This document shows positions 5,846 to 11,335 of a stretch of 64,000 nt of DNA, piece after piece; positions within the stretch are counted from its first letter, which is position 1, and each line of letters begins with the position of its first letter. Position numbers and translations under genes: made by a program. Location: NCBI RefSeq assembly GCF_018977255.1, contig NW_024704742.1:23438001-23502000 (forward strand), given 5' to 3'. The stretch comes from Callorhinchus milii (lineage: Eukaryota). The notes beneath the pieces are model-generated. The model saw nothing but the letters and a program-made list of their open reading frames with translations, ran no database searches and was not told the origin of the DNA.

Positions 5846-8800
5846 TAAGTGAGTGAGTGAGTGAGAGAGAGAGAGAGAGAGAGTGATGGAGTGAATGAAT
5901 TAAGGAGTGACTGGATGAGTGTGAGAGAGAGTGAGTGGATGAAGGAGTGAGTGAGTGAGTAGATGAGACAATGAGAGAGTGAGTGAGGGAGTGACTGGGT
6001 GGGTGAGGGAGGGAGGGAGTGACTGGGTGGGTGGGTGGGTGAGGGAGTGATTGGGTGGGTGAGGGAGGGAGTGACTGGGAGAGTGACTGGGTGAGGGAGG
6101 GAGGGAGTGACTGGGTGGGTGGGTGAGGGAGTGACTGGGTGGGTGGGTGAGGGAGAGAGTGACTGGGTGGGTGGGTGGGTGAGGGAGAGAGTGACTGGGT
6201 GGGTGGGTGAGGGAGAGAGTGACTGGGTGGGTGGGTGGGTGGGTGAGGGAGAGAGTGACTGGGTGGGTGGGTGAGGGAGAGAGTGACTGGGTGGGTGGGT
6301 GAGGGAGTGACTGGGTGGGCGGGTGAGGGAGTGACTGGGTGGGTGGGTGAGGGAGTGACTGGGTGGGTGGGTGAGGGAGTGACTGGGTGGGTGAGGGAGG
6401 GAGTGACTGGGTGGGTGAGGGAGGGAGTGACTGGGTGGGTGAGGGAGGGAGTGACTGGGTGGGTGAGGGAGGGAGTGACTGGGTGGGTGGGTGAGGGAGT
6501 GACTGGGTGGGTGGGTGAGGGAGGGAGGGAGTGACTGGGTGGGTGGGTGAGGGAGTGACTGGGTGGGTGAGGGAGGGAGTGACTGGGTGGGTGGGTCAGG
6601 GAGGGAGTGACTGGGTGGGTGGGTGAGGGAGGGAGTGACTGGGTGGGTGGGTGAGGGAGGGAGGGAGTGACTGGGTGGGTGGGTGAGGGAGTGACTGGGT
6701 GGGTGAGGGAGTGACTGGGTGGGTGAGGGAGTGACTGGGTGGGTGGGTGAGGGAGTGACTGGGTGGGTGGGTGAGGGAGTGACTGGGTGGGTGGGTGAGG
6801 GAGTGACTGGGTGGGTGAGGGAGGGAGTGACTGGGTGGGCGGGTGAGGGAGTGACTGGGTGGGTGAGGGAGGGAGTGACTGGGTGGGTGAGGGAGGGAGT
6901 GACTGGGTGGGTGGGTGAGGGAGGGAGTGACTGGGTGGGCGGGTGAGGGAGTGACTGGGTGGGCGGGTGAGGGAGTGACTGGGTGAGTGGGTGGGTGAGG
7001 GAGGGAGTGACTGGGTGGGCGGGTGAGGGAGTGACTGGGTGAGTGAGGGAGGGAGTGACTGGGTGGGTGAGGGAGGGAGTGACTGGGTGGGTGGGTGGGT
7101 GAGGGAGTGACTGGGTGAGGGAGGGAGTGACTGGGTGAGTGACTGGTTGGGTGGGTGAGGGAGTGACTGGGTGGGCGGGTGAGGGGGGAGTGACTGGGTG
7201 GGCGGGTGAGGGGGGGAGTGACTGGGTGGGCGGGTGAGGGAGTGACTGGGTGGGTGGGGGAGTGACTGGGTGGGTGGGTGAGGGAGGGAGTGACTGGGTG
7301 AGTGGGTGGGTGAGGGAGGGAGTGACTGGGTGGGCGGGTGAGGGAGTGACTGGGTGGGTGGGGGAGTGACTGGGTGGGTGAGGGAGGGAGTGACTGGGTG
7401 GGCGGGTGAGGGAGGGAGTGACTGGGTGGGTGAGGGAGGGAGTGACTGGGTGGGCGGGTGAGGGAGTGACTGGGTGGGTGGGGGAGTGACTGGGTGGGTG
7501 AGGGAGGGAGTGACTGGGTGGGCGGGTGGGTGAGGGAGTGACTGGGTGACTGGGTGGGCGGGTGAGGGAGTGACTGGGTGAGTGGGTGGGTGAGGGAGGG
7601 AGTGACTGGGTGGGCGGGTGAGGGAGTGACTGGGTGGGTGAGGGAGGGAGTGACTGGGTGGGTGAGGGAGGGAGTGACTGGGTGGGTGAGGGAGGGAGTG
7701 ACTGGGTGGGCGGGTGAGGGAGTGACTGGGTGGGTGAGGGAGGGAGTGACTGGGTGGGTGGGTGAGGGAGTGACTGGGTGGGTGGGTGAGGGAGTGACTG
7801 GGTGGGTGAGGGAGGGAGTGACTGGCTGCGTGGGTGAGGGAGTGACTGGGTGGGTGGGTGAGGGAGTGACTGGGTGGGTGAGGGAGGGAGTGACTGGCTG
7901 GGTGGGTGAGGGAGTGACTGGGTGGGTGGGTGAGGGAGTGACTGGGTGGGTGGGTGAGGGAGGGAGTGACTGGGTGGGTGGGTGAGGGAGTGACTGGGTG
8001 GGTGGGCAGGTGAGGGAGTGACTGGGTGGGTGGGTGAGGGAGTGACTGGGTGGGTGGGTGAGGGAGTGACTGGGTGGGTGGGTGAGGGAGTGACTGGGTG
8101 GGTGGGTGAGGGAGTGACTGGGTGGGTGGGTGAGGGAGTGACTGGGTGGGTGGGTGAGGGAGTGACTGGGTGGGTGGGTGAGGGAGGGAGTGACTGGGTG
8201 GGTGAGGGAGTGACTGGGTGGGTGGGTGAGGGAGGGAGTGACTGGGTGGGTGGGTGGTTGAGGGAGTGACTGGGTGAGTGGGTGGGTGAGGGAGTGACTG
8301 GGTGGGTGGGTGAGGGAGTGACTGGGTGGGCGGGTGAGGGAGTGACTGGGTGGGTGGGTGAGGGAGGGAGTGACTGGGTGGGTGGGTGGCTGAGGGAGTG
8401 ACTGGGTGGGTGGGTGGGTGAGGGAGTGACTGGGTGGGCGGGTGAGGGAGTGACTGGGTGGGTGAGGGAGGGAGTGACTGGGTGGGTGGGTGAGGGAGTG
8501 ACTGGGTGGGTGGGTGAGGGAGTGACTGGGTGGGTGAGGGAGGGAGTGACTGGCTGGGTGGGTGAGGGAGTGACTGGGTGGGTGGGTGAGGGAGTGACTG
8601 GGTGGGTGAGGGAGGGAGTGACTGGCTGGGTGGGTGAGGGAGTGACTGGGTGGGTGGGTGAGGGAGTGACTGGGTGGGTGGGTGAGGGAGGGAGTGACTG
8701 GGTGGGTGGGTGAGGGAGTGACTGGGTGGGTGGGCAGGTGAGGGAGTGACTGGGTGGGTGGGTGAGGGAGTGACTGGGTGGGTGGGTGAGGGAGTGACTG

Positions 8801-9516
8801 GGTGGGTGGGTGAGGGAGTGACTGGGTGGGTGGGTGAGGGAGTGACTGGGTGGGTGGGTGAGGGAGTGACTGGGTGGGTGGGTGAGGGAGTGACTGGGTG
8901 GGTGGGTGAGGGAGGGAGTGACTGGGTGGGTGAGGGAGTGACTGGGTGGGTGGGTGAGGGAGGGAGTGACTGGGTGGGTGGGTGGTTGAGGGAGTGACTG
9001 GGTGAGTGGGTGGGTGAGGGAGTGACTGGGTGGGTGGGTGAGGGAGTGACTGGGTGGGTGGGTGAGGGAGTGACTGGGTGGGTGGGTGAGGGAGGGAGTG
9101 ACTGGGTGGGTGGGTGGGTGAGGGAGTGACTGGGTGGGTGGGTGGGTGAGGGAGTGACTGGGTGGGTGGGTGAGGGAGTGACTGGGTGGGTAGGTGGGTG
9201 AGGGAGTGACTGGGTGGGTGGGTGGGTGAGGGAGGGAGTGACTGGGTGGGTGGGTGGGTGAGGGAGTGACTGGGTGGGTGGGTGGGTGAGGGAGTGAGTG
9301 GGTGGGTGAGGGAGGGAGTGACTGGGTGGGTGGGTGAGGGAGTGAGTGGGTGGGTGAGGGAGGGAGTGACTGGGTGGGTGGGTGAGGGAGTGAGTGGGTG
9401 GGTGAGAGAGGGAGTGACTGGGTGGGTGGGTGAGAGAGGGAGTGACTGGGTGGGTGGGTGAGAGAGGGAGTGACTGGGTGGGTGAGTGGGTGGGTGAGGG
9501 AGGGAGGGAGGGAGTG
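5842..9516. repeat. ~3.6 kb G-rich satellite: (GGGT)2-5 GAGGGA (GGGA)0-2 GTGACT, preceded by (GAGT)n/(GA)n
   Basis: Directly visible, with units of 20-32 bp built from 4-nt modules. Confidence 0.97.
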
Positions 9517-9574: not shown

Positions 9575-9830
9575 CTGTGTCCAATCTGCGGCCCCGCCGG
9601 CGCTCATTGGTCCCCGGGCGGCAGCCTGCCCTGTGATTGGTCCCCGGGCGGCAACCTGCCTTGTGATTGGTCCTCGGCCGGCAGCCTGCCTTGTGATTGG
9701 TCCCCGGGCGGCAGCCTGCCCTGTGATTGGGCCGCCGCCGCCGCACGTCTGTGTGTGGGGGGGGGGGGGTGGTCCGGCCTCCCGGCGCCCAGAGCGCCTG
9801 CGCGGCTGGCAGGGGACCATTCATAAACTA
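9575..9830 (+). promoter_or_regulatory. Putative MAB21L2 proximal promoter
   Basis: CpG/GC-rich. It has CCAAT at 9581, five inverted CCAAT (ATTGG) at 9606, 9636, 9666, 9696 and 9726, GGGCGG/CCGCC boxes and a TATA-like CATAAA at 9822, about 430 nt before the ATG. The TSS cannot be fixed from sequence. Confidence 0.65.
9604..9730 (+). repeat. 30-bp tandem repeat, ~4.2 copies (TGATTGGTCCCCGGGCGGCAGCCTGCCCTG)
   Basis: Near-identical units are directly visible with a period of 30. Confidence 0.95.
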
Positions 9831-10255
9831 AACTCTTACACACTTCCTGAGCGTGGGCAAAAGTGGTCATAGCAATAAAAACACTGAGAATCACAGGCAG
9901 AGAGAGAGAGGGAGAGGGAGGGAGGGAGGGAGGGAGGGAGATGAAAGATAAGAGCCAACTTTGGTCATTTACATTTTACGTTTCAAAACAGCGACAAATG
10001 CCACTACTTTAAAAAAAAAAGGCATCTTATTTGAAGAATTGCTGGCAGCTAAGGAGGTCTCAGGTTGTCATTTCGATTTGCCTCCCTCTCCTTCCCTCTC
10101 TCCTCTCTCTCTCTCTCTCTCTCTGAACCATTTAGGTCCAATGCACACGTTTCAGGTCTCCATCTAAATAGTGGCTGCCCACTGAACACCCGTAAGCATT
10201 GGATCCGTCAACGTACAACGAGATTCCGGTGTACAGCCCGGACCACTGTCCCAAC

Positions 10256-11335
10256 ATGATCGCGGCTCAAGCCAAGCTGGTCTACCAGCTGAACAAGTAC
10301 TACAACGAGCGGTGCCAAGCTCGGAAAGCCGCGATCGCAAAGACCATTCGGGAAGTGTGCAAAGTAGTTTCCGATGTCCTCAAAGAAGTGGAAGTCCAAG
10401 AACCCCGCTTCATCAGTTCTCTTAGCGAGATCGAGACGCGCTTCGAAGGGTTGGAGGTGATCGCCCCCACAGAGTTTGAGGTGGTCCTGTACCTGAACCA
10501 AATGGGGGTGTTCAACTTCGTGGACGATGGCTCGCTGCCTGGCTGTGCCGTGCTCAAACTGAGCGACGGCCGCAAGAGGAGCATGTCCCTTTGGGTCGAA
10601 TTCATCACAGCATCGGGCTACCTGTCAGCCAGAAAGATCCGCTCCAGGTTTCAGACCCTGGTGGCACAGGCAGTGGACAAATGCAGTTATCGGGATGTAG
10701 TGAAGATGGTAGCGGATACGAGTGAGGTGAGGCTGAGGATCAGGGAGCGCTACGTGGTGCAGATCACCCCAGCCTTCAAGTGCACAGGCATCTGGCCCAG
10801 GAGCGCGGCTCAGTGGCCCATGCCGCACATCCCGTGGCCAGGACCCAATCGAGTGGCTGAGGTCAAGGCAGAAGGCTTCAACCTGCTCTCCAAGGAGTGC
10901 TACTCCCTGACAGGCAAGCAGAGCTCTGCCGAGAGCGATGCCTGGGTTTTACAGTTCGGCGAAGCTGAGAACAGGCTGCTGATGGCGGGCTGCAGGAAAA
11001 AGTGCCTCTCGGTTTTAAAGACTCTGCGCGATCGGCATCTGGAATTGCCGGGGCAGCCGCTCAATAACTACCACATGAAGACACTGCTGCTCTACGAGTG
11101 CGAGAAACACCCGAGAGAAACCGACTGGGACGAGTCGTGCCTCGGCGACAGGCTGAACGGCATCCTCCTCCAGCTCATCTCCTGCCTCCAGTGCCGGAGG
11201 TGTCCTCATTACTTTCTCCCTAACCTCGATCTTTTCCAAGGAAAGCCCCATTCGGCCCTGGAAAGCGCAGCGAAACAGACTTGGCGATTGGCGAGAGAAA
11301 TTCTTACCAACGCAAAGAGCCTCGACAAGCTATAG
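10256..11335 (+). CDS. MAB21L2: Protein mab-21-like 2, single coding exon, 359 aa (Mab-21/cGAS-like nucleotidyltransferase fold)
   Basis: Uninterrupted ORF MIAAQAKLVYQLNKYY...REILTNAKSLDKL*, with the ATG at 10256 in context ccaacATGa. As I recall the paralogues, these segments match MAB21L2 rather than MAB21L1: VYQLN, SLSEI, IRERY, AAQWPMP, ECYSLTG, QFGEAE, TLLLYE, ALESA, SLDKL. It is nested antisense among LRBA-like exons, the known arrangement. The ORF-track start at 10199 is a TTG. Confidence 0.97.
   Translation: MIAAQAKLVYQLNKYYNERCQARKAAIAKTIREVCKVVSDVLKEVEVQEPRFISSLSEIETRFEGLEVIAPTEFEVVLYLNQMGVFNFVDDGSLPGCAVLKLSDGRKRSMSLWVEFITASGYLSARKIRSRFQTLVAQAVDKCSYRDVVKMVADTSEVRLRIRERYVVQITPAFKCTGIWPRSAAQWPMPHIPWPGPNRVAEVKAEGFNLLSKECYSLTGKQSSAESDAWVLQFGEAENRLLMAGCRKKCLSVLKTLRDRHLELPGQPLNNYHMKTLLLYECEKHPRETDWDESCLGDRLNGILLQLISCLQCRRCPHYFLPNLDLFQGKPHSALESAAKQTWRLAREILTNAKSLDKL

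What the first reader, a model, noticed from the sequence alone, without database searches (positions are those of the whole stretch)
10193..10258. Candidate UUG-initiated 19-aa N-terminal extension of MAB21L2
Seen: TAA GCA TTG GAT CCG...CCC AAC ATG. The UUG at 10199 is in frame with the ATG, has G at -3 and G/A/U at +4/+5/+6, and is followed by a stop-free, complex frame (M)DPSTYNEIPVYSPDHCPN. The main AUG has A at -3 but no G at +4. Established: near-cognate initiation depends on strong context, and +4G with +5A/+6U favours it. Inference: a 378-aa proteoform may be made alongside the 359-aa one. I have an unverified recollection of a similar P-V-Y-S-x-D-x-C-P-N frame upstream of other vertebrate MAB21L1/L2 starts.
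Basis: partly seen in the sequence, partly recalled or inferred. Interest (0 to 1): 0.7.

Follow-up and report, generated by a model that had tools for sequence, protein, structure and literature searches.

The report
Conserved UUG-started extension of MAB21L2
The 57 bases just before the MAB21L2 start codon form an in-frame stretch beginning with UUG that is kept from sharks to mammals and probably adds 19 residues to a minor form of the protein, as a published list already proposed for the human gene.

Summary
In detail: TAA (10193-10195), GCA, TTG (10199-10201), then 19 open codons to the ATG at 10256 of an intronless 359-codon MAB21L2 gene.

**Conservation.** An open frame of this length is not unusual. 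All three frames are open here. The conservation is what stands out. All three MAB21L1/2-type genes of this genome keep GCN-TTG-GAT-CCG...CCC-AAC-ATG without indels. Forty-four over-extended public gene models or ORF calls, from shark to mammals, carry part or all of the peptide L-D-P-[ST]-x-Y-C-[ED]-x-P-V-Y-x-P-[DE]-x-C-P-N.

**Prior publication.** Fedorova et al. 2022 list human MAB21L2 and MAB21L1 in their supplement among 60 genes with coding-type evolution upstream of the AUG. For MAB21L2 they predict a TTG 19 codons upstream. That TTG codon -19 start is the one proposed here.

**My tests point both ways.**
- Amino-acid replacements across vertebrates are unusually conservative (P = 0.007).
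- Among the three paralogues, synonymous sites are far more conserved than in the CDS (11 of 13 codons identical versus 115 of 318), and changes show no third-position bias.
- So the RNA or DNA sequence itself is also constrained.

**Verdict.** No translation evidence could be obtained here. It is a real, deeply conserved element, probably (about 0.6) a UUG-initiated extension, and already published as a candidate.

The parts
10141..10167 (+). Short upstream ORF in another frame (ATG CAC ACG TTT CAG GTC TCC ATC TAA, 8 codons plus stop). It ends 31 nt before the TTG and is context only.
   Evidence: Read. Conservation was not tested beyond the alignment, where this stretch has no counterpart in L002 or L003.
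10193..10195 (+). In-frame TAA at codon -21, which closes the frame upstream of the TTG.
   Evidence: Human MAB21L2 also has a 20-codon primary extension, which implies a stop at -21 (supplement row).
10199..10201 (+). Candidate near-cognate start TTG (UUG) at codon -19, in the context GCA TTG GAT.
   Evidence: TTG is identical in all 3 paralogues. Gene callers start 378-aa ORFs at this codon in other vertebrates. TTG is printed for the human orthologue.
10199..10255 (+). The 19-codon candidate N-terminal extension (M/L)DPSTYNEIPVYSPDHCPN.
10225..10242 (+). Small invariant inverted repeat TCCGG-N8-CCGGA inside the extension. It may be a hairpin and is not statistically supported.
   Evidence: Fold z-scores were -1.57, -0.62 and 0.03. 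There is no covariation because the sequence is invariant.
10256..11335 (+). Annotated-type MAB21L2 coding sequence of 359 codons plus TAG, intronless. The AUG context is AAC ATG A.
   Evidence: It is 90-98% identical to vertebrate MAB21L2/L1 models.

Best explanation
The 57 nt between the UUG at 10199 and the AUG at 10256 are an ancient part of the MAB21L1/MAB21L2 gene, already present before the two genes separated.

The likely mechanism is leaky scanning. Scanning 43S complexes meet a UUG with G at -3 and GAU as second codon. A small share initiate there with initiator Met-tRNA. That gives a 378-aa form carrying a Pro/Tyr/Cys-rich tail with no Lys or Arg, M-DPSTYNEIPVYSPDHCPN. The rest scan on to the AUG (A at -3) and make the 359-aa protein.

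The same stretch carries a second constraint at the nucleotide level, because its synonymous sites are almost frozen. I think this most likely reflects an RNA feature that tunes the choice between UUG and AUG, but that part is inference.

Shown here: the anatomy, the conservation, the conservative replacement pattern and the synonymous constraint. Taken from print: the PhyloCSF scores and the Trips-Viz TTG call for human. Inferred: that the peptide is actually made, its amount, and what it does.
For: 1. Conservation among paralogues. All 3 MAB21L1/2-type genes of this genome share GCN TTG GAT CCG TCR ... CCG GTG TAC ARC CCG GAN CNC TGY CCC AAC ATG with no indel. Conservation ends at about the TTG, with 20-24 of 57 identical in the next block.

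2. Conservation across vertebrates. Of 76 stored proteins with the MIAAQAKL-type start, 44 carry at least 8 residues upstream. All 44 show the conserved frame or its C-terminal part. They include Scyliorhinus P0069, Xenopus P0072, Pleurodeles P0006, Gekko P0002, Crotalus P0048, Columba P0064/P0066, Passer P0067, Ovis P0059, Myotis P0068, Arapaima P0036/P0043 and many teleosts.

3. Alignment A1 of 25 sequences has D2, P3, Y6, P10, V11, P14, C17, P18 and N19 invariant.

4. Replacement pattern. The 16 replacement types seen in this frame are conservative. Mean BLOSUM62 is +0.19 against -0.78 for the 123 possible single-base non-synonymous changes (P = 0.007). Without the three changes specific to this window, P = 0.0002.

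5. Only 3n indels were seen: Metynnis P0078 and Hemibagrus P0010, each with one extra Pro.

6. Published scores. The PMC9789052 supplement gives human MAB21L2 a 20-codon extension, PhyloCSF 291.6 and 'TTG; 1052-1109', which is 19 codons. It gives MAB21L1 36 codons, 228.3 and 'TTG; 991-1072' with coverage 40.9. The corrected scores are 193.3 and 251.0.

7. The context rule is in print. G at +4, and A at +5 with U at +6, help non-AUG starts (passage of PMC524250).
Against: 1. No coding-type pattern in the only nucleotide data I had. Among the 3 paralogues, variable sites are 3/4/4 at codon positions 1/2/3, against 43/14/221 of 359 in the CDS.

2. Extension dS is 0.19-0.32 against 1.5-1.75 in the CDS. 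dN/dS is 0.26-1.10 against 0.03.

3. Identical codons at conserved residues number 11 of 13 against 115 of 318 (P = 6e-4). A conserved non-coding element would give this pattern.

4. All three frames are open in all three paralogues.

5. The protein set is ascertained. Models with a stop or frameshift upstream would simply start at the AUG, so the 32 of 76 without an extension say nothing either way.

6. UUG is a weak start. Its maximal efficiency is 5-10 against 100 for a Kozak AUG (PMC5778536 passage).

7. Published ribosome-profiling support for human MAB21L2 is low (rank 4331, coverage 7.1). The proteomics count is 0 for both genes. Neither is among the 30 genes given non-AUG models in GENCODE.

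8. This window's copy is the most divergent (C to N, T/S to I, L to H), with dN of 0.16-0.22 to its paralogues.
Confidence: 0.6

Rival explanations
1. The segment is an untranslated, sequence-constrained element of the 5' leader. It could be an RNA-protein or RNA-structure signal controlling use of the AUG, or a DNA-level conserved element inside the exon. On this reading its open frame and in-frame UUG are incidental.
For: Substitutions are spread evenly over codon positions (3/4/4). dS is 5-9 times lower than in the adjacent CDS. Codons are identical at 11 of 13 conserved residues against 115 of 318 in the CDS, and Pro codons at 4 of 4 against 2 of 16. All three frames are open. There is an invariant TCCGG-N8-CCGGA repeat. 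No peptide evidence is in print.
Against: Published PhyloCSF is positive for both paralogues. Replacements are conservative in this frame (P = 0.007). Conservation starts at a UUG in the best context of the four in-frame near-cognate codons. No significant fold was found, with z of -1.57, -0.62 and 0.03. Part of the evidence for this rival fits equally well with a translated stretch that carries an extra RNA constraint.
Confidence: 0.3
2. The stretch is translated, but not from this UUG. Translation could begin at another in-frame near-cognate codon (ACG -15, ATT -11 or GTG -9 in this window). In other species or in MAB21L1 it could begin further upstream, at the TTG at -27 or at an upstream AUG.
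For: MAB21L1 keeps K-L-A-P at -28 to -25. A TTG sits at -27 in L002. Gene calls of 386 aa start there (P0083, P0084). The human Trips-Viz call for MAB21L1 is 27 codons upstream. Hemibagrus P0010 starts M-S-S-L-D-P, and the Xenopus P0072 and Passer P0067 models start at far upstream AUGs. The GTG at -9 is invariant.
Against: In this window a TAA at -21 shuts out anything upstream. ACG and ATT are specific to this window, and GTG has C at -3 and T at +4. In MAB21L2-type sequences conservation begins at codons -20/-19. The rodent MAB21L1 models (P0005, P0007) read K-A-L-A-A-A-L-D-P. They lack the K-L-A-P tetrapeptide with the Leu at -27 but keep the Leu at -19.
Confidence: 0.07
3. The open frame and UUG are a chance feature with no conservation behind them.
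For: A 19-codon open stretch has a chance of about 0.4, and all three frames are open.
Against: The same sequence is present in three paralogues whose CDS synonymous sites are saturated (dS 1.5-1.75). It also appears in 44 models across jawed vertebrates.
Confidence: 0.01

Closest known systems
Human MAB21L2 and MAB21L1 candidate non-AUG extensions in the 'PhyloSET' of Fedorova et al. 2022 (Nat Commun 13:7910, PMC9789052; supplement rows and sections 6 and 11 read; addendum PMC10764858)
   Same: It is the same gene family, and for MAB21L2 the architecture is the same. There is a 20-codon stretch between an in-frame stop and the AUG, with TTG as its second codon, 19 codons before the AUG.
   Different: The published record is two rows of a supplementary table for human, based on mammals only. 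There is no mention in the main text (0 occurrences) and no GENCODE model. This report adds the orthologue in this genome, the reach to shark and across the paralogues, and the synonymous-site constraint.
GENCODE-annotated UUG-initiated extensions SLC25A32 and TNKS2, and CUG/GUG/ACG cases such as SFPQ, CCDC8 and FXR2 (listed in section 11 of PMC9789052)
   Same: An in-frame near-cognate codon upstream of a retained AUG gives two proteoforms from one mRNA by leaky scanning.
   Different: Those cases have ribosome-profiling support strong enough for annotation. MAB21L2 does not (rank 4331).
Protostome Mab-21 N-terminus M-L-V-P-[SAPQ]-D-M-M
   Same: Residues are encoded upstream of the Met that aligns with vertebrate Met1.
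   Different: It is AUG-initiated, only 6 residues long and not recognisably similar. No L-D-P motif was found in the 63 invertebrate proteins screened (P0086-P0148).
Conserved non-coding elements within 5' UTRs of developmental genes (general class; recalled, not searched)
   Same: Nucleotide-level conservation is spread evenly over codon positions and is kept between ancient paralogues.
   Different: This element starts at a well-placed near-cognate codon, is in frame with the AUG, and shows conservative residue replacements and a positive published coding score.

Membership tests
Conserved non-AUG-initiated N-terminal extension (criteria used in PMC9789052) | An in-frame near-cognate codon upstream of the annotated AUG with no intervening stop | tested here: met
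   TTG at 10199, 19 codons, no stop
Conserved non-AUG-initiated N-terminal extension (criteria used in PMC9789052) | Favourable initiation context (purine at -3, G at +4; A at +5 and U at +6 help) | tested here: met
   The context is GCA TTG GAT here, and GCA/GCG TTG GAT in the paralogues. The rule is in print in PMC524250.
Conserved non-AUG-initiated N-terminal extension (criteria used in PMC9789052) | Frame and start codon conserved in orthologues, without stops or frameshifts | tested here: met
   Three paralogues and 44 of 76 protein models keep it. The caveat is that models with a broken frame could not appear in that set.
Conserved non-AUG-initiated N-terminal extension (criteria used in PMC9789052) | Coding-type substitution pattern (positive PhyloCSF, dN/dS below 1, third-position bias) | tested here: inconclusive
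   The paralogue test shows no third-position bias and dN/dS of 0.26-1.10. Replacements across vertebrates are conservative (P = 0.007). Published PhyloCSF is 291.6/193.3 for human MAB21L2, which I did not recompute.
Conserved non-AUG-initiated N-terminal extension (criteria used in PMC9789052) | Ribosome footprints or an initiation peak at the non-AUG codon | not testable with these tools
Published human values are rank 4331 with coverage 7.1 for MAB21L2, and rank 1950 with coverage 40.9 for MAB21L1.
Conserved non-AUG-initiated N-terminal extension (criteria used in PMC9789052) | Peptide evidence for the extension | not testable with these tools
   The proteomics count is 0 for both genes in the supplement. 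Neither gene is in the supplement of PMC11317171.
Structured RNA element in the 5' leader | A fold more stable than shuffled sequence, with compensatory changes | tested here: not met
   z-scores are -1.57, -0.62 and 0.03. The only shared stem is invariant, so covariation cannot be judged.

The most novel reading that the evidence does not exclude
The 57-nt leader may be a dual-purpose element that predates the MAB21L1/L2 split. On this reading it encodes a UUG-started tail that gives a minor proteoform distinct properties: a Met-Asp N-terminus, Ser/Thr-Pro sites, and a P-P-V-Y motif in some copies. Its RNA sequence would also set the UUG:AUG ratio. Disease-associated 'UTR' variants in this stretch would then act as missense or start-site changes. 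One example is MAB21L1 c.-68T>C, which falls on the middle base of the Leu codon at -23 in the mammalian frame.
Probability: 0.15. Interest if true: 0.65.

Novelty: already known. Interest (0 to 1): 0.4.

Why it matters
MAB21L1 and MAB21L2 are eye and brain malformation genes. If the last 57 nt of the MAB21L2 leader (up to 81 nt in MAB21L1) are coding, variants there should be read as missense, start-loss or frameshift changes, not as UTR changes.

One such variant of uncertain significance is in print: MAB21L1 c.-68T>C, in trans with p.Arg62Cys (PMC8238893).

For translation biology, the case combines a very old near-cognate start, kept in both paralogues from cartilaginous fish to mammals, with frozen synonymous sites. 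That makes it a good test case for how RNA sequence downstream of a weak start codon is selected.

For annotation, it explains why many automatic pipelines over-extend MAB21L1/2 models upstream.

Tried and rejected
- **Sequencing runs.** No RNA holder is listed.
- **Vertebrate nucleotide sequences from public collections.**
  - The metagenome-contig scan gave 80 loci, all invertebrate-type (83% identity or less).
  - The genome-contig scan gave one unrelated weak hit.
  - The viral-contig scan gave none.
- **Structure of the 378-aa form.** The model from alignment A1 had mean pLDDT 33.7 and was unusable.
- **RNA fold of the leader.** It is not more stable than shuffles.
- **Splice acceptor just before the TTG**, which would bring in an upstream coding exon. 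The window has AG there but L002 and L003 do not. Rejected.
- **An AUG-started uORF in the +1 frame ending at the UGA of AUGA.** There is no ATG in that frame in the window. Rejected.
- **An older origin of the extension.** One metagenome locus, L006, has GCT TTG GAC CCC AGT (A-L-D-P-S) in frame, 15 codons before its first ATG. Its nearest named relative is a hemichordate. The rest of its leader is unlike the vertebrate one, and the 63 invertebrate proteins screened (P0086-P0148) lack an L-D-P motif. I leave this as a weak lead.
- **Earlier findings of this scan.** Nothing relevant turned up.
[quoted passage not shown] Only search listings were seen. PMC13754004 does not mention MAB21L.

Full report
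**What is there.** The window holds an intronless MAB21L2-type gene on the + strand (ATG 10256, TAG ending at 11335, 359 codons). Upstream and in frame lie TAA (10193-10195), GCA and TTG (10199-10201), followed by 18 further sense codons. This gives (M/L)DPSTYNEIPVYSPDHCPN before the Met.

**Is it more than chance?** The open frame alone is not. (61/64)^19 is about 0.4, and all three frames of the segment are open in all three paralogues. The conservation is what exceeds chance.
- The window's own assembly (991 Mb; window at C1:23438001-23502000) holds two more genes that are 94% identical in protein, L002 on C4 and L003 on C315.
- Their CDS synonymous sites are saturated against the window's gene (dS 1.5-1.75).
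- Even so, all three share GCN TTG GAT CCG TCR NNN TAC NNC GAG NNT CCG GTG TAC ARC CCG GAN CNC TGY CCC AAC ATG without a single indel.
- Identity drops to 20-24 of 57 in the next block upstream.

**Other vertebrates.** A protein search with the first 60 residues of the 378-aa form returned 33 proteins, of which 11 covered the whole query including the extension. Adding members of six clusters, 76 stored proteins have the MIAAQAKL-type start. Of these, 44 carry at least 8 residues upstream.
- These are over-extended automatic gene models, or ORF calls that begin at a bacterial-type start codon. They are useful only because they translate the leader.
- All 44 show the same frame or its C-terminal part: L-D-P-[ST]-[ATG]-Y-C-[ED]-[TSP]-P-V-Y-[NSP]-P-[DE]-[LVI]-C-P-N.
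- The MAB21L1 type appears in a shark (Scyliorhinus P0069), frogs and a salamander (P0072, P0014, P0006), a snake (P0048), birds (P0064, P0066, P0067), mammals (P0005, P0007, P0059, P0068) and teleosts.
- The MAB21L2 type appears in Gekko (P0002), Arapaima (P0036, P0043), Hemibagrus (P0010) and unnamed contigs (P0001, P0052).
- In alignment A1 of 25 sequences, D2, P3, Y6, P10, V11, P14, C17, P18 and N19 are invariant.
- Gene callers that accept only ATG, GTG or TTG start 378-aa ORFs exactly at codon -19 in several lineages. One JGI record prints L as first residue (P0051). This fits TTG.
- Two one-residue insertions keep the frame (P0078, P0010).
- This set cannot contain leaders with a stop or frameshift. 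It therefore shows that the frame is widespread, not that it is universal.

**MAB21L1 reaches further.** Its models also keep K-L-A-P at -28 to -25. L002 has a second TTG at -27, and 386-aa ORF calls start there (P0083, P0084). Two rodent models (P0005, P0007) read K-A-L-A-A-A-L-D-P where other mammals read K-L-A-P-A-L-A-A-A-L-D-P. They lack the K-L-A-P tetrapeptide with the Leu at -27 and keep the one at -19.

**It is already in print as a candidate.** Fedorova et al. 2022 (PMC9789052) screened human genes for coding-type evolution upstream of the AUG in 120 mammals and kept 60 genes (section 6).
- Their Supplementary Data sheet A_PhyloSET lists MAB21L2: 20-codon extension, PhyloCSF 291.6, Trips-Viz 'TTG; 1052-1109; rank 4331; cov 7.14', proteomics 0.
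- It also lists MAB21L1: 36 codons, 228.3, 'TTG; 991-1072; rank 1950; cov 40.9', proteomics 0.
- 1109 minus 1052 is 19 codons. Human MAB21L2 therefore has the same layout as this window: a stop at -21, one codon, then TTG at -19.
- For MAB21L1 the predicted TTG is at -27, matching the K-L-A-P leucine.
- The addendum with corrected parameters keeps both genes (193.3 and 251.0).
- Neither gene is named in the main text or among the 30 genes given non-AUG models (section 11).
- Searches pairing MAB21L1/2 with the usual terms found no paper on the subject (listings only).

- Among the three paralogues the CDS varies at 43/14/221 of 359 sites at codon positions 1/2/3. The extension varies at 3/4/4 of 19.
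- Third positions are far more conserved than in the CDS (P = 6e-4). No 19-codon CDS window has as few as 4 variable third positions (minimum 6, median 11).
- First and second positions are less conserved than in the CDS (P = 0.03).
- dS is 0.19-0.32 against 1.5-1.75. dN is 0.05-0.22 against 0.04-0.05.
- At residues conserved in all three, the codon is identical in 11 of 13 cases against 115 of 318 in the CDS (P = 6e-4). For proline it is 4 of 4 against 2 of 16.

This is not the pattern of an ordinary coding stretch. The nucleotide sequence itself is under selection.

At the protein level the signal goes the other way. The 16 replacement types seen across vertebrates (S/T, A/T, A/G, E/D, D/E, T/S, T/P, Y/F, N/S, L/V, L/I and others) have mean BLOSUM62 of +0.19. 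The 123 possible single-base non-synonymous changes of the same codons average -0.78 (P = 0.007). Without the three changes specific to this window, P = 0.0002. The most radical changes (C to N, L to H) are in this window's copy, which is the most divergent of all.

**RNA structure.** The leader plus the first codons do not fold better than shuffles (z = -1.57, -0.62, 0.03). A 5-bp stem, TCCGG-N8-CCGGA (10225-10242), is shared. It is invariant, so it cannot be tested by covariation. The cause of the synonymous constraint remains unexplained.

**Mechanism proposed.** The mechanism is leaky scanning. The UUG has the best context of the four in-frame near-cognate codons in this window (TTG -19, ACG -15, ATT -11, GTG -9). 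It has G at -3, G at +4, and A at +5 with U at +6. That combination is reported to help non-AUG starts (passage in PMC524250 citing Boeck and Kolakofsky 1994). UUG is intrinsically weak, with maximal efficiency of 5-10 on a scale where a Kozak AUG is 100 (PMC5778536 passage). The longer form should therefore be minor. The tail is rich in Pro, Tyr and Cys and has no Lys or Arg. I could not learn anything about its structure, because the model was unusable (pLDDT 33.7).

**Origin.** Protostome mab-21 genes start M-L-V-P-x-D-M-M from an AUG six codons upstream, with no likeness to the vertebrate tail. One unnamed metagenome locus (L006) has GCT TTG GAC CCC AGT (A-L-D-P-S) in frame upstream. Its nearest named relative is a hemichordate. 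The motif hits 6 of 85 loci in all. Four of these are the upstream in-frame sites and two are chance hits on the other strand. This is a weak lead to a pre-vertebrate origin.

**Verdict.** It matches a published candidate for the human orthologue. I put about 0.6 on a translated UUG-started extension that also carries an RNA-level constraint, about 0.3 on a purely untranslated conserved leader element, and the rest on other starts. It is not new as a kind or for this gene family.

Noticed in passing
window 6081-9486 and 9606-9730: A 3.4-kb minisatellite (24-nt unit, 136 copies, 82% matches) lies upstream of MAB21L2. It reads as a spurious 1074-aa ORF on the minus strand. A 30-nt repeat of 4.2 copies follows it.
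   Followed up: no
L003 (G000:C315:7436-8512, minus strand): This genome has a third MAB21L1/2-class gene on a small contig. It is 94% identical in protein to the other two, has GC3 of 0.94 and carries its own copy of the upstream frame (F-A-L-D-P-S-A-Y-C-E-P-P-V-Y-N-P-E-L-C-P-N). Arapaima also has two 'mab-21-like 2' models.
   Followed up: partly
L002 (G000:C4), codons -28 to -25 upstream of the ATG: MAB21L1-type genes keep a second in-frame TTG at -27 (K-L-A/S-P). This matches the TTG predicted for human MAB21L1 in the PMC9789052 supplement and the 386-aa ORF calls P0083/P0084. The two rodent models lack this K-L-A-P tetrapeptide.
   Followed up: partly
literature: MAB21L1 c.-68T>C (PMC8238893) and MAB21L2 chr4:150583030 A>C (PMC9789052 supplement file 3): The reported 5'-UTR variant of uncertain significance c.-68T>C was found in trans with p.Arg62Cys in a child with microphthalmia. 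It falls on the middle base of codon -23. That codon is Leu in the mammalian models seen here, so in the extended frame the change would be Leu to Pro or Ser. The likely pathogenic MAB21L2 variant lies one base after the listed extension, so it is the A of the AUG.
   Followed up: partly
L006 547-561 (metagenome contig, + strand): An invertebrate-type mab-21 gene has GCT TTG GAC CCC AGT (A-L-D-P-S) in frame, 15 codons before its first ATG. Ser is encoded by AGT where vertebrates use TCR. Its nearest named relative is a hemichordate.
   Followed up: partly
loci L010-L018, L023-L026 and others; proteins P0095-P0138: Arthropod and other protostome mab-21 genes begin M-L-V-P-x-D-M-M, from an AUG six codons upstream of the Met that aligns with vertebrate Met1.
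   Followed up: no
window 10141-10167: An 8-codon AUG-started uORF in another frame ends 31 nt before the TTG. It has no counterpart in the aligned leaders of L002 or L003.
   Followed up: no
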